From a phage, in the sequence record OZ346158.1: a stretch of DNA of 64,000 bases. One strand, written 5' to 3'. Made by a program: the position numbers and the translations under genes. Below, one piece after another: positions 6,909 to 52,148 of this stretch; position 1 is the first letter of the stretch, and each line of letters opens with the position of its first letter. Under the pieces are notes generated by a model that was given only the letters and a program-made list of their open reading frames with translations, made no database searches and had not been told where the DNA came from.

Positions 6909-8654
6909 ATGGCGCAAGACATGACAAGCTTTGAGCAGGCGGTAGATCAAGTAATTGTTGATTCTGAACGTTTGCACTTGGTTGTCAACGGTAACGCTGT
7001 GGATGAAGTTGTCGTAGAGGATGGGACCACCATCCCTACGGTACGAAAAGCCATGCTTGACAACCTTTATTTTAAAACGCCACCGATCCCTTGGGCGTAT
7101 GGTGCATCCACAACAGTTTTTAACCAGCTGTACGAGTTTAAAGGGGACACAGGCCCTCAGTGGTGGTACGCTCCCGCAGCATCAAAATCTAACCCGGTTA
7201 GAATGCCAGCAGATCCTTCACAATCTCCAAACTGGAGATTATATACCGACTCTGCAGTAATGGCAAAATACTACGCAAAACTTAACAGCCCGAGGTTCGA
7301 AGGTGACCCACGAGTACCTACACCTCCAATGGACGATAAGTCAGAGTCCATAGCAAACACAGAGTTTGTTGTTGACTATGTTGATAGCATATTTAAAGCC
7401 ATGGAGGGGATGAAAGTTACTGTAGGGTCTTTGGTGGTAAAAGGTCTTACAGAACTCGCTAACACTATAGTTGGTGGCACCCTTACCTTACATGGACCTG
7501 TTAATGGGGCAGATTCTACTGCACGCTTTAGGAATCTAATCCTCACGGCAAATACTTCTACACTTACTTTTGCGTGGAGCGATCCTAAGCATGCAGACTG
7601 GAGAAGTACAGAGCTGCAACCTCATGAAGTGTCCACCCACAGGGTTGTAGCTGACACTATAACTTCTGGGAAACCAGTGGCTAATAATAACGATGTGCAT
7701 TTTGATGGTCTGGGTAATAACTTTTTTGACTACGTGTACATTCGTGGTAATGCCATGAAGGCAGCAACCGAACCGACATTGCAGGTCGATGGGACCACCA
7801 GGGTTAAGAACCTTGAGGTGACAGGTACCGTTACAGGGATAACATACTCTGTCGATGGCACCATGATCTACCCTAGCTATATTGAAAGCACGGGTGATGC
7901 ATTGATAAATGGCGATTTGGAGGTTGGCGGGTCTGTAGTTATTCGAGGTACAGCCTCTATCCAAAATATAGCTCTGAATACTCTAAGAGTCAATGAGCGT
8001 GCAACTTTTGAAGGAGAAGGGCTTACAGCCAATAAAGGTACAATTACCGAGCTAACCACCACCACTTTAACTGCAACAACTGCAAACTCTGAAAACTGCA
8101 ACATTACCAGAAACTTGCAGGTAAATGGAGATGTTAGTTTAAACGCCGCAGGGACTGGCACCACCCACCTTCACAACCTTGAAATATCCGGCACAGTGAC
8201 CGGGTGGCTGCCAGACTTCTCTAATGTCAACTTTGTCTGTAATGGCATTAACTCCAGTGGTAAGATAACCACCTCTCAAGAAATTGAGGCGGGTAAAACC
8301 ATTACTGCCCCTACTTTCCACGCAGGAAAGGTAGATTTTGACTTAGAGGAGGTTGACGCGTCCAGTGGGACATGGACACCTAACGGGCAGGCCAGTATGT
8401 ATGTTGTCCACGCTAAAGGGGATTTTACAATAGGTCAGTGGCCTGGGACATCAGCGGAAGATAAACCTTATCCATTCACTGCAGTTATCTATGTCATTCA
8501 GGATGCTGTAGGTCACAACGTGACTTTGCACGATAAGTATGCTATCCTGTCGGCAACACCTGTTATTAACAACAGGGCTAACAGTGTTACCTTGCTGCAA
8601 TTAACGTATTGTGGTGTTGGTGATATTGTAGACGTAGTAATTGCACAACGTTAA
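6909..8654 (+). CDS. tail fibre / tail spike-like protein
   Basis: 581 aa, AAGGAGAAA RBS; Thr/Gly/Asn-rich repetitive beta-type composition typical of fibres; in fibre cluster. Confidence 0.6.
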   Translation: MAQDMTSFEQAVDQVIVDSERLHLVVNGNAVDEVVVEDGTTIPTVRKAMLDNLYFKTPPIPWAYGASTTVFNQLYEFKGDTGPQWWYAPAASKSNPVRMPADPSQSPNWRLYTDSAVMAKYYAKLNSPRFEGDPRVPTPPMDDKSESIANTEFVVDYVDSIFKAMEGMKVTVGSLVVKGLTELANTIVGGTLTLHGPVNGADSTARFRNLILTANTSTLTFAWSDPKHADWRSTELQPHEVSTHRVVADTITSGKPVANNNDVHFDGLGNNFFDYVYIRGNAMKAATEPTLQVDGTTRVKNLEVTGTVTGITYSVDGTMIYPSYIESTGDALINGDLEVGGSVVIRGTASIQNIALNTLRVNERATFEGEGLTANKGTITELTTTTLTATTANSENCNITRNLQVNGDVSLNAAGTGTTHLHNLEISGTVTGWLPDFSNVNFVCNGINSSGKITTSQEIEAGKTITAPTFHAGKVDFDLEEVDASSGTWTPNGQASMYVVHAKGDFTIGQWPGTSAEDKPYPFTAVIYVIQDAVGHNVTLHDKYAILSATPVINNRANSVTLLQLTYCGVGDIVDVVIAQR

Positions 8655-21391: not shown

Positions 21392-21426
21392 CATTCGAAA
21401 GAAAACTAACATAGGAGCACTTACTT

Positions 21427-22326
21427 ATGGCAAATCTTAACAGTTTTAGTACGCGGTGGAAACAGGACATAACAACCAATCTTTCAGCTGGGGACATCCT
21501 TTCTGCAATTTACGAGGCTTTAGATGATAAAGCTACTTCAAAAGCGGTTTGTACCAACCCACTAATTCCTGTAGTGATGAAGGTTATTGAGCGTAGATTG
21601 GTATCTGGGTCTGATAAGTGGACATATTTAGATAATGAAGGACACACCTATTCCAATGGGTACGTCGATATAAAAGTAGAATACGCGGTATCATACCGCC
21701 GGAGCGGTTCTGTAACTTTCAACTTCTCTGGAGGTTTTCGATCTCTGGCTACCTCACCTTTTGTTTCCTCAGAGGAGAAGTATGAGCTGCCATTTCTTTG
21801 GATGATGGCTAACGCGACAGGAAAAACCCCCGTTAGCATCCGAGTAAAATACAACTACAACGGATCTAGTAAGATCTATGCCGAAAGTGCCTCAGCAAGT
21901 TTTTATTTTGTGATGGGGGATGGAATCCTCAAACATATAAAGATGTGCGATATGCATGATGTTATAAATGAAGTGACTGATAAGAATGTTCTAGTGAAAG
22001 ACCTCAATAATTTTTATACACCTGGAGACTATTACGTCAACCGCCCACTGTGCATCTTTAATGCCGCACACCCTTTAGGTGAGTATTTGATCGCCAATAG
22101 CGATATTGCCAATAACCGCTTCGAGGTAGCAAGAGTACAGAATGAGGTATTGACATCTTGCAAGAGCGGTGATAAGTTTACCGAAGAAGAGATGGGTGTT
22201 TTAGAAATGATGGGATATAAGTGTAGCCTTTGGGTAGATGAGGTGTTTAATGACTGCATCTATGGACAGGATATTTACCCATTAAAGAAGTATACTGATA
22301 CAAGTTTAATTTATGCGGGGATTTGA
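21427..22326 (+). CDS. hypothetical protein
   Basis: 299-aa ORF, AGGAG RBS. Confidence 0.6.
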   Translation: MANLNSFSTRWKQDITTNLSAGDILSAIYEALDDKATSKAVCTNPLIPVVMKVIERRLVSGSDKWTYLDNEGHTYSNGYVDIKVEYAVSYRRSGSVTFNFSGGFRSLATSPFVSSEEKYELPFLWMMANATGKTPVSIRVKYNYNGSSKIYAESASASFYFVMGDGILKHIKMCDMHDVINEVTDKNVLVKDLNNFYTPGDYYVNRPLCIFNAAHPLGEYLIANSDIANNRFEVARVQNEVLTSCKSGDKFTEEEMGVLEMMGYKCSLWVDEVFNDCIYGQDIYPLKKYTDTSLIYAGI

Positions 22327-42932: not shown

Positions 42933-43298
42933 ATGGAACAAATGAACGATCAAGCGTCGGTTGCGATGAACGAGCAAGAACAACCTCAAGAATTTTTCTT
43001 AGGGTTAAGTAAAGATCAAGTGTCTCTTTTGCTAGTGCTTTCTTCTTTCATGGGAAGACTTCAGGAGCTCACACAACAACCGGAGGCTGAACAATTATTT
43101 CAGGCTCTGCGTGAAGAAGAAAAATATCGTCGTTTGGACTATGCCTTAGGTTGGGTAGCTCAACAACGAGATATGCTGATGGCCCTCTCTGGGACCACAA
43201 GTTTTGCAATGGGCCTGTTGGCTCAAGTTCAGGACAAATTAATTCAAGCAGGGTTTGCACACACGGCAAACACTAACGAAGAACAAGGAGACAAATAA
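42933..43298 (+). CDS. hypothetical protein
   Basis: 121 aa, GGAGA RBS. Confidence 0.5.
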   Translation: MEQMNDQASVAMNEQEQPQEFFLGLSKDQVSLLLVLSSFMGRLQELTQQPEAEQLFQALREEEKYRRLDYALGWVAQQRDMLMALSGTTSFAMGLLAQVQDKLIQAGFAHTANTNEEQGDK

Positions 43299-44569
43299 TG
43301 AGCGTTATTCAACAATTCGCTAACCCGATGAATCCGCGTGAAACTGTTTTACTGGCTCACGGCATGATTAAACGCGTCAGCATCAAGCCTATCAAAGGTG
43401 CTGATCCTACAACAGGTATTAAAACCACTGTGTGGCAAGGTAAGAAAATTGAGTCCAGCCACACCATCTCTTTACTGATTTCTGAACTGGATTCCTCTGA
43501 TAACCTGCTTCAAGGTGGTGAAGAAGTCTGGATCAGCATGGGTGATAAACTGCTTAAACCGGGTCATCAAGACTCTGTCTCTGTTAAGATTGATGACAAG
43601 TGGGAAACCGTAACGCCAGGATGGATCGTAAATATCCCTTTGAAGGCAAACGAGCATAACGGTAAGACCTACTACAAGGGCTCACTGGCTAAGATGGTTA
43701 AGCTGGGTGCAGGGGAGGCTCCAGCAGCGACTCAGCAGCAAAAACAGCAACAAGGTGCACAATCACAAGGCCAGAAGCAGAAACCTCAGCAGAATGCCAA
43801 TCAGGACGTTTTACGCATCTATGGCGATGTGACTCAGATTGTTGGCAACGTGGTTACTGTTAATGACCACAAGATTGGCGAAGGTGCTATGGTTGTCACT
43901 GATGAGCAGCTTAAAGACCTGGTGGTAGGTGGTCGTGTTGCAGCCATTGTTGACAAAGACACCGGAAACATTATCAGTGGTTTCAAAGCCTACCCACCTA
44001 AGGCAGAGAACGGCACTCAAGGCTCTGGTGGCAAGCGTAAATCCTCTTACGACCCTATTGGTGTGGAGACGGGACATAGCATCAATGCGTTGCAAATCAT
44101 CCTGGATCGCGGGTTTAAGGTAGACGACCCACTAGGTGTGGCTAAAACACTGCACGTAGTCACCATTGAGCTTAAGAAAGAGTATGCTCAAGCCACCAAC
44201 CGAACTGAAGATGAAGTAGGTGCCAGTGTCGGTAATGCGGTGTTGAACGCTTGTCGCCGTATTGACAAGAAAACGAAAGTTGATGATTTTGCAGCGGCAA
44301 TTACTGCAGAAGCAAAAGATGTCTTGACTAATCTGGCTGAGCCGTTGTACGATTGGATCAAGAACGGTGCTGGGTCCACTGACCATCAAGAACCTCAAGC
44401 TGCCAAACAGGAAGCTGCTTCACAGCAAAATACTGTAGACGCTCCTCCTGTAAATGACGAGGAAGATGACCCAATGGATCAGAATCCAGCACAGTATGAC
44501 TTCTGTGATGACATACCTTTCGCTCCGGTGGGTTTGCAATATGGCAAAAGTAGAATCCACGCATTGTAA
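43298..44569 (+). CDS. putative ssDNA-binding protein with SSB-like acidic tail
   Basis: 423 aa; Gln-rich linker; ...YDFCDDIPF near C-terminus matches the E. coli SSB tail DFDDDIPF, but is followed by 16 extra residues; in replication block. Confidence 0.5.
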
Positions 44570-45164
44570 GAGGTGCATCAAGTGTGGAGAGGTGAAAAAC
44601 CTCTCCGAGTTCTACAAACATCCAAAGATGTCTGACGGTCATCTTAATAAGTGCAAAGAGTGTTGCAAGAAGGCCAGCAGGGAGGCTGACCAATTTTCCC
44701 ACGACTCTTCAGAAAAAGGTGTGATCCGCGTGTTGTACAAGACTCAAAAGTGCAACAGTAAGAAGAGAGGTCACCCACCTCCGACTTACACCAAAAAAGA
44801 GTTTAAGGAGTGGCTATACCTAAACGGTTACAAAGAGTTGTATGATCAATGGGTAGCCAGCGGATACGACAAAAGGAAAAAGCCTTCTTGTGACAGGATA
44901 GATGATTTCAAAGGGTACTCTTTTGATAATATCCGTTTAACGACTTGGGGAGAAAATAAAGACAAGCAGACAGAGGATATTCTGTTACATAGAAGCACCA
45001 GCGGTAGACGGTGCAAAAATGTAAGGAGGTTGGACATGAATGGTAACGTTCTTAAAGAATGGGTATCCCACAATTCTTGCCGAAGAGAAACAGGGATATG
45101 TGTTGATTACTACATTCATGAAAAAATTCCAGCTCCCGATGGATACCTCTATGAATACTTCTAA
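44541..45164 (+). CDS. zinc-finger protein, possible free-standing homing endonuclease-like
   Basis: Start at ATG 44541 overlapping end of SSB-like gene; N-terminal CKRC...[13 protein letters not shown]...CKEC zinc-finger pattern seen in phage endonuclease-type proteins. Confidence 0.45.
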
Positions 45165-45179
45165 CATCTAGTTAACATA

Positions 45180-45209
45180 GCCCTGCCCGAAAGGGTGGGG
45201 CATTTTTGT
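45180..45209 (+). terminator. rho-independent terminator (copy of 33552 hairpin)
   Basis: GCCCTGCCC-GAAA-GGGTGGGGC followed by ATTTTTG. Confidence 0.7.
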
Positions 45210-45226
45210 ATAAGGAGATCTGAAAA

Positions 45227-45643
45227 ATGACATTAGAAGATATCATTGTTAAGCCTGAGAACTATGACCAATACAACCTGTCAACTCAATCTGTAGACCT
45301 TGGATGCGCCACGGTCAGTGCGTGGCTGGTTAACGGAAAAGAGCTGGATAAATGCTTAGAAGCTCACATGTCTATTAACAAGTTTCTGGATGAAAATACT
45401 CACTGGCTTGAGGGTGCAGGCGTATATGCTTCATGGTTGGAGAGTATGGGATTCGACTACCAATCTGAAGAGGGGTGGTGGAGCTATTTAGCTATCTGCC
45501 CAGAGACGCTGCAATGCTTCATGAAATATTCTGAAGATTTAGAGTATCGCGCTGTGGTTGACAGTGCTATTGCCCGTTATAGCCGTAAACCTTTTTCCCA
45601 CGACATTAAAACTGTGGAAGAGTTTGTTGAAGTTTTCTGTTGA
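45227..45643 (+). CDS. hypothetical protein
   Basis: 138 aa, AAGGAGA RBS. Confidence 0.55.
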   Translation: MTLEDIIVKPENYDQYNLSTQSVDLGCATVSAWLVNGKELDKCLEAHMSINKFLDENTHWLEGAGVYASWLESMGFDYQSEEGWWSYLAICPETLQCFMKYSEDLEYRAVVDSAIARYSRKPFSHDIKTVEEFVEVFC

Positions 45644-45738
45644 CACAGGTTGAAAGGTGTGCAATTATAACTTCATAGACGGGAGGACGTGATGAACGAA
45701 GAAAACTGGGATGTATAACTAACAGGAGGCCACTGCCC

Positions 45739-45936
45739 ATGATTTATCGAATCCGTGTAAGAGAAGATGCACCAGGCTGTTACTTTGACTGGCGTGGGTG
45801 GTGGTTTCTCCACCCGATGGATGGACTCACAGATAGAATGCTGGATGCTGCCCTTTATACAGATACCGACATAGAATATAATCTCTATCTGAAGGACGGT
45901 ATAGATAACGGTCTATTTGAAGCAATTCCTGTGTAA
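45739..45936 (+). CDS. hypothetical protein
   Basis: 65 aa, AGGAGG RBS. Confidence 0.5.
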   Translation: MIYRIRVREDAPGCYFDWRGWWFLHPMDGLTDRMLDAALYTDTDIEYNLYLKDGIDNGLFEAIPV

Positions 45937-46004
45937 GAGACTGTGATAGCCATGTTTTATGATCTTCCTGTAGCACCACCACCTGTTGAACCCGGAGAAC
46001 TAAG

Positions 46005-46430
46005 ATGATCTATGAAATGCCAAAACTGATTCGTGATGATGCCCAAAACGCTCACACCATTATTATGGGCAAACGTATGGATATTATTTGTCATAAAGAT
46101 TTCTGGGAAGGAAGTTACTTCACAGAGTATTTTGGTAAACTGGACAATGGTCTGCTGATCCAGTTCTACACCGATGCGGAAAACAACATTCACTGGGAGT
46201 TCGAAACTGAAGATATCCATAAACTTTTCACCTTCCTCGGTATTAAGGTCGAGGCCAAGTTTGAAGAAGGTGAGTGCGACGATTGTGGATTCTATGAGGT
46301 AACAGATTTCTACCTTCCAAGTGGTAAAAATCTCTACTACGAAAGCCACTTCGGCAACTCAAATATGCCACAGGGTTGGGATGAGTTTTTGGAAATTGCA
46401 GAAGAGGAGCTGGAATACCGTGATTATTGA
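46005..46430 (+). CDS. hypothetical protein
   Basis: 141 aa, GGAGAA RBS-like. Confidence 0.5.
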   Translation: MIYEMPKLIRDDAQNAHTIIMGKRMDIICHKDFWEGSYFTEYFGKLDNGLLIQFYTDAENNIHWEFETEDIHKLFTFLGIKVEAKFEEGECDDCGFYEVTDFYLPSGKNLYYESHFGNSNMPQGWDEFLEIAEEELEYRDY

Positions 46431-46878
46431 TACTGTAAAGGGAGATCTAATCTCCATTTTCAAGAAAGGGTCAGGCCACATGATCCACGGTTGTAACTGC
46501 TTTCACACAATGGGTGCAGGTATAGCGAAAGATATTGCCCGTGAGTTCCCTCAAGCACTGGCAGCCGACAAAGAGACTGCTTATGGTAATCTAGACAAGC
46601 TGGGTATGTTTTCTTGTTGGGAGCATTTTGCCAAGGCCAGGGTCGTATATGGAATCAACCTGTATACCCAGTTCTACCCAGGGCCCAATGCTGAATACTT
46701 CTCAATCATGAAAGGTTTTGAGCGAGTCAACGAGGTATTCAAAGGTATGTCATTGCCGTTCTACATTCCTAAAATCGGATGCGGTATTGGAGGTCTAAAG
46801 TGGAAACATGTAGAAGATGTAATTAATCTTGCAACCACAGATATTGATGTGGTTGTAGTAGAGTACAAAAAGTGTTGA
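46420..46878 (+). CDS. macro-domain protein (Poa1p-like ADP-ribose-processing)
   Basis: GTG start after GAGGAG; motifs VKGDLISIF, IHGCNCFHTMGAGIAKDIAREFP and PKIGCGIGGLKW match the Macro_2/Poa1p pattern. Confidence 0.7.
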   Translation: MIIDTVKGDLISIFKKGSGHMIHGCNCFHTMGAGIAKDIAREFPQALAADKETAYGNLDKLGMFSCWEHFAKARVVYGINLYTQFYPGPNAEYFSIMKGFERVNEVFKGMSLPFYIPKIGCGIGGLKWKHVEDVINLATTDIDVVVVEYKKC

Positions 46879-47129
46879 CGACCATCTTCTGAGGTGATAT
46901 AGTTTCCACAACAACTAAGAGAGGAGAGCACTGTGGAGACTAAAATCTTAATTCTTGCTGTGGTAGATACAACCGAAGGAGCTATATTCGAATCTGCAGG
47001 AGGGTATTTCTACCTACCATACGGAAAAAGAACTTCCGAGCCAAGTAAAGATTCAATCCTCAAAGTGTTCCCGTGTGCTTTCTGGCTGGAGATTTTGGTA
47101 TAAGATTGCAGATGATTTGGGAGAGAATT

Positions 47130-47324
47130 ATGAGAAACAAGAAAGAACTTTACTCTGGTGAGTGGATCAACGATCAACAGGTGGGAGAGGTAACCTGCTT
47201 CCGATGTTTTACCAGGTACAATCTTAAAACTGCACCAAAAAGTGTTCCAAAGACTGATGGTTATTATATAAAAGAACCTCATTGCCCAAAATGTAAATGC
47301 CGATTGTACTGGAGCAATCTGTAA
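47130..47324 (+). CDS. small zinc-ribbon protein
   Basis: ATG after GGGAGAG; CFRCF ... CPKCKC cysteine pairs. Confidence 0.45.
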   Translation: MRNKKELYSGEWINDQQVGEVTCFRCFTRYNLKTAPKSVPKTDGYYIKEPHCPKCKCRLYWSNL

Positions 47325-47387
47325 GAGGTTGACATCTGAAAACTGCAGTGTATAATATACGCATAAACTAACAGAGAGCGATGTATT

Positions 47388-47579
47388 ATGGTAATTTTTA
47401 ACCGAGATGGTATCATAGTTAGACAGCACCCGTTCCTTGAATACTATCAAATTGAGCAATGGTGCTACGGGGATTGCAGTCACTCCTATGGGCAAAGTTG
47501 GGGATACCGTACAGTTTTTGAATCCACAGACCTTGACAAAGTAAGACAGAAAGTTTTAGAACTTATTAACAACAAGTGA
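47388..47579 (+). CDS. hypothetical protein
   Basis: 63-aa ORF. Confidence 0.4.
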   Translation: MVIFNRDGIIVRQHPFLEYYQIEQWCYGDCSHSYGQSWGYRTVFESTDLDKVRQKVLELINNK

Positions 47580-47586
47580 GTATGAT

Positions 47587-47919
47587 ATGGTAACATTAGA
47601 AAGACGTAAAGCTATTGCCGCCACACTGGCAGACATCTTTTGGGATTGTAATTTAAAATCTACCCGAAATTGTGGCGCATCTGTAGATGTATTATTCCCA
47701 CGGCCTACTATTGTTGCAATGGGCAACCTTCTTGATGTGGTATATGGAGCATGGGACAAGGAAGGTGGATTCTATATCTGGCAACCTGACTACGGGACTT
47801 GGAAAGAGGTTAGTGGTTCTACGGACTTCACTCCTGCAGTGGCTAAAATGGATGGCTGGAAAATCTATGTCGGTAACGACATGGAACTGAAAGGCGAAAT
47901 TGTTTACTGGTTACCTTAA
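47587..47919 (+). CDS. hypothetical protein
   Basis: 110-aa ORF. Confidence 0.45.
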   Translation: MVTLERRKAIAATLADIFWDCNLKSTRNCGASVDVLFPRPTIVAMGNLLDVVYGAWDKEGGFYIWQPDYGTWKEVSGSTDFTPAVAKMDGWKIYVGNDMELKGEIVYWLP

Positions 47920-47939
47920 GAAAGTGCAGGAGATAAAGT

Positions 47940-48185
47940 ATGAACAAAGGGTGGACATTTGTAGACGGCGTTGAAAACATGCCTCTAGGAAAGTATATTG
48001 TAGCCATGGCAGATGAGAATGGCAAGGTTGATTTCGGAGCTTGCGAGATTGTTCTTGCAGGATCTGGTGACCATGTGCACAAAACTGGGATAATTAACGG
48101 TCATTTCTACTTTGATTACAACCCTGTTGTGGCGTATATGGCTATGCCAGAGTTAGAGCTCCCAAAGGAGGGTGCAGATGTTTAA
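47940..48185 (+). CDS. hypothetical protein
   Basis: 81 aa, GGAGA RBS. Confidence 0.5.
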   Translation: MNKGWTFVDGVENMPLGKYIVAMADENGKVDFGACEIVLAGSGDHVHKTGIINGHFYFDYNPVVAYMAMPELELPKEGADV

Positions 48186-48375
48186 GCTTAAATCTGCATG
48201 GAACATCGCTGTGGGGGATGAGATCCGCATCCCAGGTGGAAAGACCATTATGAAGATATCACGTATCGAGTATGAAGGTGATCGTGTATTTCATATCTTT
48301 GCAGAAGATGGTCGAGAAATTTATATACAGGCAGGCTCTCACATCTATATCAGTAAGAAAGGGGACGACAAATGA
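48172..48375 (+). CDS. hypothetical protein
   Basis: 67 aa, AGGAGGG RBS, overlaps upstream end. Confidence 0.45.
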   Translation: MQMFKLKSAWNIAVGDEIRIPGGKTIMKISRIEYEGDRVFHIFAEDGREIYIQAGSHIYISKKGDDK

Positions 48376-48704
48376 CAGAGATCATCGTTTCAACTGCAGG
48401 GTATGTATTCCTGACAATCATTGCGTTGGCTATTCTGGTGGCGGTGTATGGATTTGTTATCCTGCCTATTCTTGAGACATTTAGCTTGTGTCGGTGTTGG
48501 AGAAAAGCTTACGGACCACAACCGTGGAAAGACTGGTTTCATTTGGTGCGTATAGCGTTCTCTTATGCCTATGATCACTCCAGCAGTGCATGCGTAACCG
48601 GGTACCATGCCTACAACTGGAACTGGGAAGGGCTTGGGAGATGGACTGTTACAAAAACTATACCCTTACGGTTGTATAAAGGAAAGAACACACTGGGAGC
48701 CTGA
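48372..48704 (+). CDS. hypothetical membrane protein
   Basis: 110 aa, N-terminal hydrophobic helix; last gene before repeat-rich non-coding region. Confidence 0.5.
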   Translation: MTEIIVSTAGYVFLTIIALAILVAVYGFVILPILETFSLCRCWRKAYGPQPWKDWFHLVRIAFSYAYDHSSSACVTGYHAYNWNWEGLGRWTVTKTIPLRLYKGKNTLGA

Positions 48705-48739
48705 TATTTTAAGTTATCAGATTGCCAGAGATCAGGAGG

Positions 48740-49200
48740 ATTTCTAAAATGGATTTCCTCCTTTTGATATTTTACCTACCAGGATATTTTAAAATCCTTA
48801 GAAAATCAGAAAATGGATCGAAAACTAAAATGGATTTTTCAGAGCAGGCACGACGAGATGAACCACTCATCCTATCGTCTGCACCATATTCCAGACCACC
48901 ATTACAGATTTCCCGCACATGCTCACATCCTTCTACTAGAACTTCCCCCACTTACCCTTGACCTTTTATAGTAATAATCCAACCACTACCTTGAAGTTGT
49001 GGCGCAGCTTTCCAAGTACTCGATCTGTTTTTCGTTTCAAAGATTTAATTTTCTGAAAATTTTTCTCGATAAATTTCTCAGTACTCGATCTGTTTTTCGT
49101 TTTCTGAATCGGATTTTCTGGAAATCGTTCCGGCTCTCGACCTGAAATTTTTGGGGACGAAATCGATTTTTCGTTTTCAGAAATGGATTTTTAAAATTTC
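48740..49200. repeat. iteron-like direct repeats in non-coding region
   Basis: AGTACTCGATCTGTTTTTCGTTT at 49015 and 49080 (65-bp spacing), related CGATTTTTCGTTTTCAG at 49163; several AAAATGGAT copies between 48745 and 49190. Confidence 0.6.
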
Positions 49201-49310
49201 TATATGGGAATATTTTAGTGGATACTATTTTATAGGAAATTGTTACGGAGGGTAATTAGCGTGCTAATTAAATTTATTAAATGCGAGGAGTTCTCATTTA
49301 GAATTTTGAA

Positions 49311-49515
49311 TGATAATCATTCTCGTTTGCAGAATAACGGGCAGGCCCGGTGATTGTCTCCCGGCCCCTACTGCCCCGGCTTGTTATTATAGTAACACAC
49401 AGGACAAAGAAAGCAAGAAGTTTTTGCATAAATTTTTAGACGATAATGATAATCGTTCTCATTTCATGCAGCGCCCATCCCCGGTGGTTGTCTCCCCCGT
49501 CACCGGTGCCTGCCG
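49311..49515. repeat. imperfect direct repeat pair (about 55 bp) containing CCGGTG(A/G)TTGTCTCCC
   Basis: ATAATCATTCTCGTTTGCAG...CCCGGTGATTGTCTCCC at 49311 and ATAATGATAATCGTTCTCATTTCATGCAG...CCGGTGGTTGTCTCCCCC at 49444. Confidence 0.6.
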
Positions 49516-49706
49516 TCCTTTCAATAGGTATATTTTGCCACCTGGCGGGGCCGCTGTCAACACTTTTCAAAAAAAAAATTCTAACCTGATGCGCTGACCG
49601 CTGCAACCTGGCAGGGCCTAACTGACCAGGTAGGAGAGAATGAAGGCTTGCAAACCTGGTGGGCCTATGCTATAGGATAGGTAACAATTGAAGAGGAGGT
49701 ACAAAA

Positions 49707-49883
49707 ATGGAAGGTAATATGATCCCCCTGGAAAATGTAGCTATTAATGACGCTGAGGCTATCGCCCTGGTTGAAAAGGCTATGGCGGGAGCGTTGGAAC
49801 ATAAAGAAGAGTACGAAAAAATGGTGGTTAACCTGGCAGGGGCGGCGGCTGGAGAATTCTACCCAAAAAATAATTTTAACTAA
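49707..49883 (+). CDS. hypothetical small protein (58 aa)
   Basis: Below track cutoff; strong RBS AAGAGGAGG 7 nt upstream of ATG. Confidence 0.5.
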   Translation: MEGNMIPLENVAINDAEAIALVEKAMAGALEHKEEYEKMVVNLAGAAAGEFYPKNNFN

Positions 49884-49968
49884 TGGTTGACAGCTCGGAC
49901 AGTTCTTGTTATTCTTATCCTCGCAAGGTGAACAACACCACACCAATTAACAGAGAGGATAAAAAATC

Positions 49969-50166
49969 ATGAACGCCTACGGAATTAAAGTACGTCGCAA
50001 CACTCGCCAGGTGGTCACCAATCAAGTGATTTGCCGGGTGGATGTAACCATCAACAACGGGCAAGGCCTTTATAAATTTCGTCGCGGTCATAGCTATACC
50101 CTGCAACAGCTTAACCGTTGCGCCCTGACAAAAGGTCAGATCAACCACTGGTTTAATAAAAAATAA
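49969..50166 (+). CDS. hypothetical basic protein
   Basis: 65 aa, RBS GAGAGGATAAAAAATCATG. Confidence 0.55.
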   Translation: MNAYGIKVRRNTRQVVTNQVICRVDVTINNGQGLYKFRRGHSYTLQQLNRCALTKGQINHWFNKK

Positions 50167-50711: not shown

Positions 50712-51107
50712 ATGAATAAGAACGTACGCCGCATCATGAACGAACTGGCAAACGATGAAAAAATTATTGACATGCATTTAGTCAACATTTGCCGCCGTTG
50801 TGTAACATATAACAACCGCGCCGCAAAAGCGCGTGAGATGAACGCAAAAGGCACCTTAAAGCCCTTTCAGGTGGTTGTAAAATCTATAACCAGTGCAGCA
50901 GGCCAGGCGCATGACCACAACAACGGGAGCACTAATATTGATCCGTCTTACGTAATGAAACGGATCCGGACTTGCAAGAATAAAGAGCAGGTGTATAATG
51001 TCATAGACTGGTTGGATTCTATGGGCGATGTGGTTTACAATAGGTTTTCTGCAGCTATCGAGATCCAGCTTGACAGGTTGGACGGTAAAGTACTGAAAAC
51101 TTACTAA
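50712..51107 (+). CDS. hypothetical protein
   Basis: ATG after AAAGGAAAAAAG; upstream TTGACA-16-TAAACT and leader hairpin GGCGGGAA-TGTT-TCCCGCC. Confidence 0.5.
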   Translation: MNKNVRRIMNELANDEKIIDMHLVNICRRCVTYNNRAAKAREMNAKGTLKPFQVVVKSITSAAGQAHDHNNGSTNIDPSYVMKRIRTCKNKEQVYNVIDWLDSMGDVVYNRFSAAIEIQLDRLDGKVLKTY

Positions 51108-51155
51108 GATTATTTTTAGATGGCCTTGACTTCAGGGCCATCAATAAAGTAAACT
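51105..51155 (+). repeat. 51-bp intergenic element, copy 1 (hairpin ATGGCC-TTGACTTCAG-GGCCAT)
   Basis: TAAGATTATTTTTAGATGGCCTTGACTTCAGGGCCATCAATAAAGTAAACT starting at the stop codon; identical copy at 51736, diverged copy at 55475. Confidence 0.8.
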
Positions 51156-51387: not shown

Positions 51388-51738
51388 ATGAATACTTCCA
51401 TCACTATGACCGCCGAAGAAAAAGCCCTGCAGATCGCCGCTCTGAAAAAACAGATTGCAGAACTTGAAGACAAGATCGACAATTTTGAAATCGACGAAGA
51501 CAAGTACGACGATAAATATGATGAATGGTTAGACGAGATCTACGGCGAAATTATGATCGGAAACATTTCTTTTCTTCCGTCGCGTATCCTCAAGGAGCTA
51601 GATCCTATCGCTTACCGCTGCGGATTTAGCGACTACATCGACAGCCTGGATATTGAGGACGATGAAGAATACCAGGAATTACAGACAGAGTTAGAAGAAG
51701 CAAAAGAAGAGCTTGCAGAACTGGAAGAAAACGAGTAA
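51388..51738 (+). CDS. highly acidic coiled-coil protein (candidate DNA mimic)
   Basis: 116 aa dominated by D/E (e.g. DIEDDEEYQELQTELEEAKEELAELEENE); AAAAGGAGAAAA RBS; own promoter. Confidence 0.6.
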   Translation: MNTSITMTAEEKALQIAALKKQIAELEDKIDNFEIDEDKYDDKYDEWLDEIYGEIMIGNISFLPSRILKELDPIAYRCGFSDYIDSLDIEDDEEYQELQTELEEAKEELAELEENE

Positions 51739-51786
51739 GATTATTTTTAGATGGCCTTGACTTCAGGGCCATCAATAAAGTAAACT
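51736..51786 (+). repeat. 51-bp intergenic element, copy 2
   Basis: Identical to 51105..51155; begins at stop codon of 51388..51738. Confidence 0.8.
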
Positions 51787-51827: not shown

Positions 51828-52073
51828 ATGGCAGCACTAATCACCAAATATTATGCCCCTACCAACACCAAAAGCGCCCGTATCATGGTAAAAGGCTTCG
51901 GACGTAAAAAGGTGTACACCTGGGATTATGCCTTAGACACGGAAGACAACTACACCAACGCGATGACCGATTTTATTAATGATCTGAACACGCGGATCTT
52001 GACAAATTATAAAATTACCGATATTGCCTATATAGGGGAAGGCGGGATCTGTTTTGTCGGTATCGTCAAATAA
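51828..52073 (+). CDS. hypothetical protein
   Basis: 81 aa, RBS GGAGTTAAAACCATG. Confidence 0.5.
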   Translation: MAALITKYYAPTNTKSARIMVKGFGRKKVYTWDYALDTEDNYTNAMTDFINDLNTRILTNYKITDIAYIGEGGICFVGIVK

Positions 52074-52148
52074 GCTGTTTTTTCGGTGGTCCTGGTAGCA
52101 GGGCCATCTATAAAGATAGTTTATCAATACAATGAAAGGAGAAAGTAC

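What the first reader, a model, noticed from the sequence alone, without database searches (positions are those of the whole stretch)
46420..46878. Poa1p-like macro domain protein: candidate ADP-ribose-processing counter-defence enzyme
Motifs VKGDL, GCNCFHTMGAGIA and PKIGCGIGGLKW match the Macro_2 (Poa1p-like) pattern. Macro domains remove or hydrolyse ADP-ribose modifications, so a phage copy could reverse ADP-ribosylation-based immunity or degrade ADP-ribose-derived signals. The probable start is a GTG coupled to the upstream gene.
Basis: partly seen in the sequence, partly recalled or inferred. Interest (0 to 1): 0.6.

Follow-up and report, generated by a model that had tools for sequence, protein, structure and literature searches.

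The report
Phage macrodomain, likely anti-DarTG2 enzyme
This gene in an rV5-like E. coli phage encodes a small ADP-ribose-removing enzyme related to phage T4 Tk.4 (AdfM), which protects T4 from the bacterial DarTG2 defence, so it is a real but already-recognised kind of counter-defence gene.

Summary
Window 46420-46878 (+) encodes a 152-aa single-domain macrodomain protein, and all three quoted motifs are present. The GTG start, overlapping the upstream gene, is the best-supported start.

The window comes from a Vequintavirus (rV5-like E. coli myovirus). Public records already annotate this gene as "Macro domain protein", "Poa1p-like family protein" or "phosphatase".

The subfamily label is imprecise. 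Pfam matches Macro (PF01661), not Macro_2. By fold, Poa1p is one of five about equally close relatives, along with BT1257/SCO6735, DarG and TARG1.

The decisive link is T4 Tk.4: 39% identity over the full length, E 1e-43. A 2025 preprint named Tk.4 AdfM because deleting it makes T4 sensitive to DarTG2. The near-identical Bas54 orthologue (bas54_0092) is non-essential on E. coli K-12 and has not been tested on DarTG2.

One refinement: the family has an invariant Gln (Q84) where DarG, TARG1 and PhiKZ AdfM have the catalytic Lys. That matches SCO6735, a lysine-independent hydrolase of thymidine-linked ADP-ribose on DNA.

Most likely role: removing DarT2-made ADP-ribose from phage DNA. Verdict: new member of a known kind, modest interest.

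The parts
46420..46878 (+). CDS for a 152-aa stand-alone macrodomain protein, a Tk.4/AdfM-family ADP-ribosyl hydrolase. GTG start, TGA stop.
46404..46409 (+). Shine-Dalgarno sequence GAGGAG, 10 nt upstream of the GTG start.
   Evidence: Read from the sequence. Conserved in 4 Vequintaviruses.
46420..46430 (+). 11-nt overlap (GTGATTATTGA) between the macro gene's start and the end of the upstream 141-aa gene, implying translational coupling.
   Evidence: ORF list and sequence. The same arrangement is annotated in slur12 and Bas54/MaxBurger.
46489..46527 (+). Loop 1 and catalytic motif H23-G24-C25-N26-C27...G32-A33-G34-I35-A36. N26 (46495-46497) corresponds to DarG N22, SCO6735 N27 and PhiKZ AdfM N23.
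   Evidence: G24, N26, C27, M31, G34 and A36 are invariant in 91 homologues. Profile alignments to 5e3b, 5m3i and 4j5r. Role of the Asn from PMC9411070 and PMC13309987.
46657..46671 (+). N80-L-Y82-T83-Q84 motif. Q84 (46669-46671) occupies the position of the catalytic Lys of TARG1 (K84) and DarG (K80), and matches SCO6735 Q85.
   Evidence: N80, Y82, T83 and Q84 are invariant. 116 of 120 homologues have the ...TQ motif. Alignments: Q to Q in SCO6735/BT1257, Q to K in Mtb DarG, TARG1 and PhiKZ gp104.
46768..46803 (+). Loop 2 (diphosphate-binding) P117-K-I-G120-C-G122-I-G-G125-L-K-W128. There is no Asp at the TARG1 D125 position (G124 here).
   Evidence: P117, G120 and G122 are invariant; I119, G125 and W128 are >=90% conserved. 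Alignment to PRIGCGLAGG (SCO6735), PPLGVGNGGLDW (Mtb DarG) and PRIGCGLDRLQW (TARG1).
46005..46430 (+). Upstream co-oriented 141-aa gene of unknown function (phrog_8157), translationally coupled to the macro gene. Context only; no evidence of a shared function.
   Evidence: ORF list. No Pfam hit; PHROG 8157 E 2.3e-80. Non-essential in Bas54 as bas54_0091.

Best explanation
The gene encodes a stand-alone macrodomain ADP-ribosyl glycohydrolase of the ALC1/TARG1/DarG-like class. It is the Vequintavirus counterpart of phage T4 Tk.4 (AdfM).

Proposed mechanism:
1. The gene is expressed from the early/accessory gene block downstream of the DNA polymerase gene.
2. The protein binds the ADP-ribose that the host toxin DarT2 attaches to thymidines in single-stranded phage DNA.
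3. It hydrolyses the ribose-thymine bond, restoring replicable DNA and so neutralising DarTG2 abortive defence.

Catalysis is predicted to be lysine-independent. N26 would position the invariant Q84, which orients the distal ribose, as described for Streptomyces SCO6735. This differs from the Lys-based chemistry of DarG, TARG1 and PhiKZ AdfM.

Shown here: macrodomain identity, fold, pocket conservation, homology to T4 Tk.4, and Gln at the catalytic position.
Taken from the literature: the tk.4 knockout phenotype on DarTG2, and the activities of SCO6735, DarG and PhiKZ AdfM.
Inferred: that this orthologue acts on DarT2-modified DNA, and that it uses the SCO6735-type mechanism.
For: - Macrodomain identity: Pfam Macro above cut-off. 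The best NCBIfam and PADLOC matches are DarG, over its macro part only.
- Homology to T4 Tk.4: 39% identity over 153 columns, E 1e-43, NLYTQF conserved. Tk.4's only significant hit in the window is this ORF.
- Genetics in T4: tk.4 was the single hit of a transposon screen on DarTG2, and a clean knockout sensitised T4. The authors named it AdfM.
- Precedents for the reaction: PhiKZ AdfM removes DarT2 ADP-ribose from DNA in vitro. SCO6735 cleaves thymidine-linked ADP-ribose on DNA and rescues cells from DarT; its Q85A/E and N27S mutants are inactive or nearly so.
- Active site: Q84 and N26 are invariant in 91 homologues and align with SCO6735 Q85 and N27.
- Accessory status: the Bas54 orthologue (151/152 identical) is non-essential on K-12, with 31 of 31 TA sites hit.
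- Distribution: homologues occur in 2,729 of 50,697 phage records, mostly large virulent phages.
Against: - No experiment exists for any Vequintavirus orthologue. The Bas54 library was not run on DarTG2.
- The T4 evidence is genetic only and comes from a preprint. Enzymatic removal by Tk.4 is the authors' own inference.
- Identity to T4 Tk.4 is 39%, so substrate preference could differ.
- The DarG/TARG1 catalytic Lys is absent. Activity then depends on the SCO6735 precedent, but two SCO6735 DNA-binding features are missing: K34 is A33 here, and the extended mobile loop with K89 is absent.
- Macrodomains are promiscuous in vitro.
- Bacterial family members are not linked to DarT genes.
Confidence: 0.65

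Rival explanations
1. It is a housekeeping hydrolase of small ADP-ribose metabolites, such as an ADP-ribose-1''-phosphate phosphatase (as Poa1p) or an O-acetyl-ADP-ribose deacetylase. It would clean up by-products of RNA repair or NAD metabolism during infection, not act in counter-defence.
For: - Public annotations read 'phosphatase', 'A1pp phosphatase motif' and 'Poa1p-like'.
- Poa1p H23 is conserved here and S30 is replaced by Thr (alignment).
Against: - No Pfam Macro_2 hit.
- Poa1p is no closer than DarG, TARG1 or BT1257.
- Poa1p F152 aligns to G124 here.
- The only in vivo phenotype known for a family member is DarTG2 sensitivity.
- No Pfam family (so no KptA/Tpt1-like domain) was found in the ten ORFs flanking the gene.
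Confidence: 0.1
2. It removes mono-ADP-ribose from proteins or RNA. It would counter a different ADP-ribosyltransferase-based defence, or tune phage-directed ADP-ribosylation of host proteins.
For: - TARG1 and SCO6735, both close structural relatives, also hydrolyse protein-linked ADP-ribose.
- TARG1 is the top Foldseek hit.
- ART-based defences that act on RNA exist, e.g. CmdTAC (PMC11618068).
Against: - TARG1's protein-directed Lys/Asp dyad is absent here (Q84, G124).
- No family member has been shown to counter a protein- or RNA-directed ART.
- In the T4 screen, tk.4 was picked up specifically on DarTG2.
- This could also be an additional activity rather than a true alternative.
Confidence: 0.12
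3. It degrades or sequesters ADP-ribose-derived immune signals, such as Thoeris gcADPR or His-ADPR, and so blocks signalling-based defence.
For:
- PMC9503650 proposes it generally for phage macro domains.
Against: - No family member has such a reported activity in the papers read.
Confidence: 0.05
4. It neutralises DarT2 mainly by binding the toxin (stoichiometric inhibition), as AdfA and AdfB do, not by hydrolysis.
For: Catalytically dead SCO6735 Q85A, DarG K80A and TARG1 K84A still inhibit DarT in vitro (PMC9411070).
Against: - The protein lacks the C-terminal DarT-binding domain of DarG. Only profile positions 2-144 of 338 match.
- Strict invariance of pocket residues N26 and Q84 points to catalysis.
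Confidence: 0.05

Closest known systems
Phage T4 Tk.4 = AdfM (anti-DarT factor macrodomain; bioRxiv 10.1101/2025.11.20.689424)
   Same: - Same family and architecture: a stand-alone macrodomain of about 152-155 aa.
- 39% identity over the full length, E 1e-43.
- Same HGCNCFHTMG, NLYTQ and P(K/R)IGxGIG motifs.
- Non-essential accessory gene in both phages.
   Different: - Different phage lineage (Vequintavirus versus Tequatrovirus) and different gene neighbourhood: T4 has tk/vs, here small unknown genes.
- The DarTG2 phenotype is shown only for T4.
- The phage JSE tk.4 homologue is much closer (67.5% identity).
Streptomyces coelicolor SCO6735 (PDB 5e3b) and Bacteroides BT1257 (2fg1/2afc)
   Same: - Same His-x-x-Asn and Gln catalytic constellation (H23/N26/Q84 versus H24/N27/Q85).
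- Stand-alone protein not encoded next to DarT.
- SCO6735 hydrolyses thymidine-linked ADP-ribose on DNA.
   Different: - Only about 22-24% identity.
- SCO6735 has a mobile loop 5-6 residues longer after the Gln, carrying K89/K94, and has K34. Neither is present here (A33, short loop).
- The motif is YTQ here versus IGQ.
DarG2 antitoxin macrodomain (T. aquaticus 5m31/5m3e, M. tuberculosis 5m3i; NCBIfam NF048014, PADLOC DarG)
   Same: - Best NCBIfam and PADLOC family hit.
- Conserved Asn (DarG N22).
- Same presumed substrate, DarT2-modified thymidine.
   Different: - Catalytic Lys80 is replaced by Gln.
- No C-terminal DarT-binding domain and no adjacent darT.
- Scores far below the family cut-off: 45.7 versus 250 bits.
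PhiKZ gp104 = AdfM of chimalliviruses (Cell Rep 2026, PMC13309987)
   Same: A phage-encoded stand-alone macrodomain that counters DarTG2 by removing ADP-ribose from DNA. Same fold class.
   Different: - Only 21% identity to the window protein.
- PhiKZ gp104 is a close DarG relative (PADLOC DarG 132.9 bits versus 46.3 here).
- It keeps the catalytic Lys (FPTK versus YTQ).
- It is imported into the phage nucleus. It probably represents an independent acquisition.
Yeast Poa1p (PDB 6lfq-6lfu; Pfam Macro_2)
   Same: - Shared N-terminal motif VKG(D/N)...IH(G/S)CNC...G(A/G)GIA.
- Source of the 'Poa1p-like' label in GenBank records.
   Different: - No Pfam Macro_2 match.
- Poa1p is longer (about 177-180 aa, with inserts).
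- Poa1p F152 aligns to Gly here.
- Poa1p's known role, an Appr1p phosphatase in tRNA-splicing by-product metabolism, has no evident counterpart in this phage.
Human TARG1/OARD1 (PDB 4j5q-s)
   Same: Top Foldseek hit (E 2.3e-10, TM 0.75-0.81). Same class. TARG1 also cleaves thymidine-linked ADP-ribose on DNA.
   Different: The Lys84/Asp125 dyad is replaced by Gln84/Gly124. About 23% identity.

Membership tests
Macro domain superfamily (Pfam PF01661 Macro) | Profile match above the curated gathering score | tested here: met
   25.5 bits against a cut-off of 22, E 1.4e-5, covering residues 22-134 and profile positions 1-117 of 118.
Macro domain superfamily (Pfam PF01661 Macro) | Three-layer alpha/beta macro fold with two glycine-rich ADP-ribose-binding loops | tested here: met
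   [not shown]
ALC1-like / TARG1-like macrodomain class (TARG1, DarG, SCO6735, BT1257, Poa1p) | Closer in structure and sequence to this class than to the MacroD, viral Mac1, PARG or macroH2A classes | tested here: met
   [not shown]
Pfam Macro_2 (PF14519, Poa1p-like) | Match to the Macro_2 profile | tested here: not met
   Only PF01661 was reported at E <= 1.
Pfam Macro_2 (PF14519, Poa1p-like) | Poa1p residues probed by mutagenesis in the solved structures (H23, S30, F152) | tested here: inconclusive
   From the alignment: H23 is conserved, S30 is Thr30, F152 is Gly124. The importance of these residues is inferred only from the PDB entry titles; the paper was not available.
Pfam Macro_2 (PF14519, Poa1p-like) | ADP-ribose-1''-phosphate phosphatase activity | not testable with these tools
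   Needs an enzyme assay.
DarG2 antitoxin (NCBIfam NF048014 equivalog) | Full-length match above the equivalog cut-off, including the C-terminal DarT-binding domain | tested here: not met
   45.7 bits against a cut-off of 250. Only profile positions 2-144 of 338 match, and the protein is 152 aa. PADLOC DarG positions 3-143 of 329.
DarG2 antitoxin (NCBIfam NF048014 equivalog) | Catalytic Lys (T. aquaticus K80) and Asn (N22) | tested here: not met
   The Asn is present (N26), but the Lys position holds an invariant Gln84.
DarG2 antitoxin (NCBIfam NF048014 equivalog) | Encoded in an operon with a DarT toxin | tested here: not met
   The flanking genes are small phage proteins with no Pfam match. 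In 80 bacterial loci no neighbour family is shared by more than 7 loci. No DarT-specific profile was run on the bacterial loci.
AdfM, T4 Tk.4 type | Full-length homology to T4 Tk.4 with the same single-domain architecture | tested here: met
   39% identity, 66% positives, E 1e-43 over 153 columns. Tk.4's only significant tblastn hit in the window is 46420-46869, E 5e-37. Both match PHROG 335-type 'phosphatase' annotations.
AdfM, T4 Tk.4 type | Required for phage growth on DarTG2-expressing hosts and dispensable otherwise | not testable with these tools
   Dispensability is supported: bas54_0092 (151/152 identical) has 31 of 31 TA sites disrupted and is classed non-essential. The DarTG2 requirement is untested for any Vequintavirus.
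AdfM, PhiKZ gp104 type | Close DarG2-like macrodomain with active-site N23 and K78 | tested here: not met
   21% identity. hhalign probability 96.9%, but with Q84 aligned to K78. PADLOC DarG 46 bits versus 133 bits for gp104.
SCO6735-type lysine-independent DNA ADP-ribosyl hydrolase | Gln at the DarG/TARG1 Lys position, held by a conserved Asn (SCO6735 Q85/N27), with the preceding His (H24) | tested here: met
   Profile alignment: NaYTQ aligns to NMIGQ, and hGcN to HVCN. H23 is >=90% conserved; N26 and Q84 are invariant. Functional importance from PMC9411070.
SCO6735-type lysine-independent DNA ADP-ribosyl hydrolase | Extended mobile loop with K89/K94, and K34, for DNA binding | tested here: not met
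   SCO6735 and BT1257 carry a 5-6 residue insertion after the Gln relative to the family profile. K34 aligns to A33.

The most novel reading that the evidence does not exclude
The Tk.4-type AdfM proteins, including this one, may be a mechanistically and evolutionarily separate solution from DarG-derived antitoxin mimics such as PhiKZ AdfM.

Under this reading they descend from stand-alone bacterial macrodomains that are not linked to DarT. They use a lysine-free Asn/Gln active site like SCO6735, and may therefore act on both DNA-linked and protein-linked ADP-ribose. That would give broad protection against several ADP-ribosyltransferase defences, not DarTG2 alone.
Probability: 0.35. Interest if true: 0.45.

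Novelty: new member of a known kind. Interest (0 to 1): 0.3.

Why it matters
It extends a recently found counter-defence (AdfM against DarTG2) from T4-like phages to the rV5-like Vequintaviruses, a group used in phage-therapy cocktails. Family members occur in about 5% of sequenced phage genomes (2,729 of 50,697 records).

It also flags a point the papers read here did not raise. The Tk.4 family lacks the catalytic lysine of DarG and carries the Gln of SCO6735. This makes the enzyme's chemistry and substrate range directly testable with Q84 and N26 mutants.

It does not reveal a new kind of system.

Tried and rejected
- **Pfam Macro_2.** Its profile did not match, so 'Poa1p-like' is rejected as a specific assignment.
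- **Alternative starts.**
  - ATG 46381, used in the PMBT16 annotation, is rejected. It is CTG in slur12, and homologues begin at the GTG-equivalent position.
  - GTG 46321 (the 185-aa ORF) is rejected because that stretch encodes the upstream gene in another frame.
  - The internal ATG (M31) used in the MiataMamis annotation would delete N26, although that phage's reading frame is intact.
- **Functional partner among neighbours.** Ten flanking ORFs gave no Pfam hit and only unknown-function PHROGs, apart from an endonuclease VII/HNH homing endonuclease.
- **DarT linkage in bacteria.** 345 bacterial loci encode family members. In the 80 loci retrieved, neighbours are lineage-specific genes (recognised by eye as rpoC-, argC- and secA-like) and no neighbour family is shared by more than 7 loci. 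No DarT-specific profile was available, so a rare linkage is not excluded.
- **Second macrodomain in the window.** None was found.
- **RNA genes.** The tRNA and Rfam scans of the window were empty.
- **Selection among close relatives.** dN/dS is about 0.24-0.48, but from only 12-23 substitutions, so this is weak evidence.
- **Poa1p structure paper.** It was not in the library.

Full report
**What is in the sequence.** Window 46420-46878 (+) translates to 152 residues plus a stop codon.

The mechanical ORF extends upstream to a GTG at 46321. That stretch, however, encodes the C-terminus of the preceding 141-aa gene (46005-46430) in another frame.

The GTG at 46420 is the best-supported start for four reasons:
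- It lies 10 nt after GAGGAG (46404-46409) and overlaps the upstream stop codon by 11 nt (GTGATTATTGA).
- GTG and the Shine-Dalgarno sequence are identical in four Vequintaviruses.
- The only alternative in-frame ATG (46381) is CTG in phage slur12.
- All 91 aligned homologues begin at the equivalent MI(I/V)xxVKGD.

Public annotations disagree on the start. slur12 and Bas54 use the GTG, PMBT16 uses ATG 46381, and MiataMamis uses internal Met31.

**Origin of the window.** The 3.5 kb around the gene is 99.4% identical to Escherichia phage PMBT16. It is 94-99% identical to many other rV5-like phages of the genus Vequintavirus. In those records the gene is already labelled "Poa1p-like family protein", "Macro domain protein", "phosphatase" or "hypothetical protein". 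It sits in a long run of small, co-oriented genes of unknown function downstream of the DNA polymerase gene. The ten neighbouring ORFs gave no Pfam match and only unknown-function PHROGs, apart from an endonuclease VII/HNH homing endonuclease.

**Identity of the protein.**
- Pfam gives Macro (PF01661) at 25.5 bits against a cut-off of 22. There is no Macro_2 hit at E <= 1.
- PHROG 335 ("phosphatase") matches at E 2.5e-59.
- The best NCBIfam and PADLOC families are DarG. Only its macro part matches, and the score is far below the equivalog cut-off (45.7 versus 250 bits).
- An AlphaFold2 model built on 91 homologues is very confident (pLDDT 96.9, pTM 0.91).
- A family profile hits BT1257, SCO6735, DarG, TARG1 and Poa1p at E 6e-15 to 1e-12, with no clear preference.

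The protein is therefore a member of the ALC1/TARG1/DarG-like class. "Poa1p-like" is one of several equally valid resemblances, not a specific assignment.

**Active site.** Across 91 homologues the invariant residues are G24, N26, C27, M31, G34, A36, D50, N80, Y82, T83, Q84, P117, G120 and G122.

In the profile alignments N26 matches the catalytic-site Asn of DarG and SCO6735. Q84 occupies the position of the catalytic Lys of TARG1 (K84) and DarG (T. aquaticus K80). It aligns with Gln in SCO6735 and BT1257. TARG1's Asp125 position is Gly124.

The published work on SCO6735 (PMC9411070) shows that:
- this enzyme lacks the Lys and has Gln85;
- it is inactivated by Q85A/E and nearly so by N27S;
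- it hydrolyses thymidine-linked ADP-ribose on DNA efficiently;
- it rescues cells from DarT;
- it also acts on protein-linked ADP-ribose.

116 of 120 retrieved homologues carry the ...TQ motif, and so does T4 Tk.4. Two SCO6735 DNA-binding features are absent here: K34, and the longer mobile loop carrying K89.

**The decisive link.** A tblastn search found homologues in 2,729 of 50,697 phage records. Many are annotated tk.4 in T4-like phages.

T4 Tk.4 itself is 39% identical over the full length (E 1e-43). Its only significant match in the window is this ORF.

A 2025 preprint (bioRxiv 10.1101/2025.11.20.689424) reports three things:
- tk.4 was the single significant hit when a T4 transposon library was grown on DarTG2;
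- a clean knockout sensitised T4 to DarTG2;
- the authors named the gene adfM and inferred enzymatic removal of ADP-ribose from DNA.

Earlier work had shown that T4 lacking AdfA and AdfN remains resistant to DarTG2 (PMC11825919).

Separately, a chimallivirus macrodomain (PhiKZ gp104) was also named AdfM. It was shown biochemically to remove DarT2 modifications (PMC13309987). That protein is only 21% identical to the window protein. It keeps the Lys (FPTK) and scores 133 bits on the PADLOC DarG model, against 46 bits here. The two "AdfM" proteins are therefore different branches of the same fold class.

**Direct data on the orthologue.** Phage MaxBurger is Bas54. Its gene bas54_0092 is 151/152 identical to the window protein. 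In the HIDEN-SEQ supplement all 31 TA sites were disrupted and the gene is classed non-essential on E. coli K-12. T4 tk.4 behaves the same way, with 45 of 46 sites disrupted. This fits an accessory, condition-specific gene. The Bas54 library was not challenged with DarTG2.

**Bacterial relatives.** The family is large. There are 1,311 50%-identity clusters at E <= 1e-30 and 8,588 at E <= 1e-10.

345 bacterial genome loci encode members of about 40% identity. Judged from the 80 loci retrieved, they are nearly all stand-alone proteins of about 150 aa with the N(A/G)YTQ motif. Their neighbours are lineage-specific genes (recognised by eye as rpoC-, argC- and secA-like), and no neighbour family is shared by more than 7 of those 80 loci. 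The phage genes therefore look more like captured stand-alone macrodomains, as SCO6735 is, than like orphaned DarG antitoxins. No DarT-specific profile could be run, so this remains tentative.

**Mechanism and rivals.** The most likely function (about 0.65) is hydrolysis of DarT2-made ADP-ribosyl-thymidine on phage single-stranded DNA. It would use an Asn26/Gln84, lysine-independent active site.
- Shown here: the fold, the pocket conservation, the homology and the Gln substitution.
- Taken from the literature: the genetics in T4 and the biochemistry of SCO6735, DarG and PhiKZ AdfM.
- Inferred: transfer of both to this protein.

The rivals are:
- a small-metabolite hydrolase (Appr1p or O-acetyl-ADP-ribose), about 0.10;
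- protein or RNA de-ADP-ribosylation, about 0.12, possibly an additional activity;
- degradation of immune signals, about 0.05;
- mainly stoichiometric inhibition of DarT, about 0.05.

**Verdict.** The gene is already annotated as a macrodomain, and its family's role has already been reported for T4. It is a new member of a known kind. The modest added value is the Gln-for-Lys active site shared with SCO6735, which distinguishes Tk.4-type from PhiKZ-type AdfM and is easy to test.

Noticed in passing
window 46381-46530; L005 (MiataMamis PP925834) 21421-21880; L001 (PMBT16) 7383-7880: Public annotations of this gene disagree on the start. PMBT16 starts at the upstream ATG (165 aa). MiataMamis starts at internal Met31 (122 aa), which would remove the catalytic Asn although that phage's GTG start and reading frame are intact. 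slur12 and Bas54 use the GTG.
   Followed up: yes
phage JSE NC_012740 51776-52228 (hit H24): The tk.4 homologue of the T4-like phage JSE is 67.5% identical to the Vequintavirus protein, whereas T4 Tk.4 is only 39% identical. This suggests gene exchange between unrelated myovirus lineages.
   Followed up: no
window 51105-51155, 51736-51786, 52071-52121: A 51-nt element containing the hairpin GATGGCCTTGACTTCAGGGCCATC occurs twice at 100% identity and a third time at 69%. It lies between small genes and may be a repeated terminator or regulatory element.
   Followed up: no
window 49006-49191: Three degenerate direct repeats of about 47-57 nt, spaced 65-74 nt apart. The stretch contains only tiny ORFs (annotated as 31-48 aa CDSs in relatives) and includes a long terminator-like hairpin at 49147-49184.
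   Followed up: no
window 47329-47356, and 43000-50000 generally: A perfect sigma-70 consensus promoter (TTGACA-16-TATAAT) lies upstream of the 63-aa gene at 47388. The region has 22 promoter-like sites against 12.7 expected from shuffles, which fits a host-polymerase-transcribed early region.
   Followed up: no
window 44454-45164 and 45180-45201: An endonuclease VII/HNH-type homing endonuclease gene (PHROG 1035) sits here. Its longest ORF overlaps the end of the preceding 423-aa gene, and relatives annotate a later start. A strong intrinsic terminator follows it (9-bp stem, 7 GC pairs). The 423-aa gene's Bas54 orthologue, bas54_0087, is classed essential.
   Followed up: partly
BFVD hit A0A481YV05 (Marseillevirus LCMAC103): The closest predicted viral structure (TM 0.93, 40% identity) is the macro part of a 302-aa giant-virus protein labelled 'SNF2 subfamily protein'. 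Several phage relatives are 200-260 aa, meaning the same macrodomain is fused to extra domains. This recalls the ALC1 SNF2-plus-macro arrangement.
   Followed up: no
window residue 129 (nt 46804-46806): The window protein has Lys129 (LKWKHV), whereas all four compared Vequintavirus orthologues have Glu (LKWEHV). This is a surface change of unknown significance.
   Followed up: no
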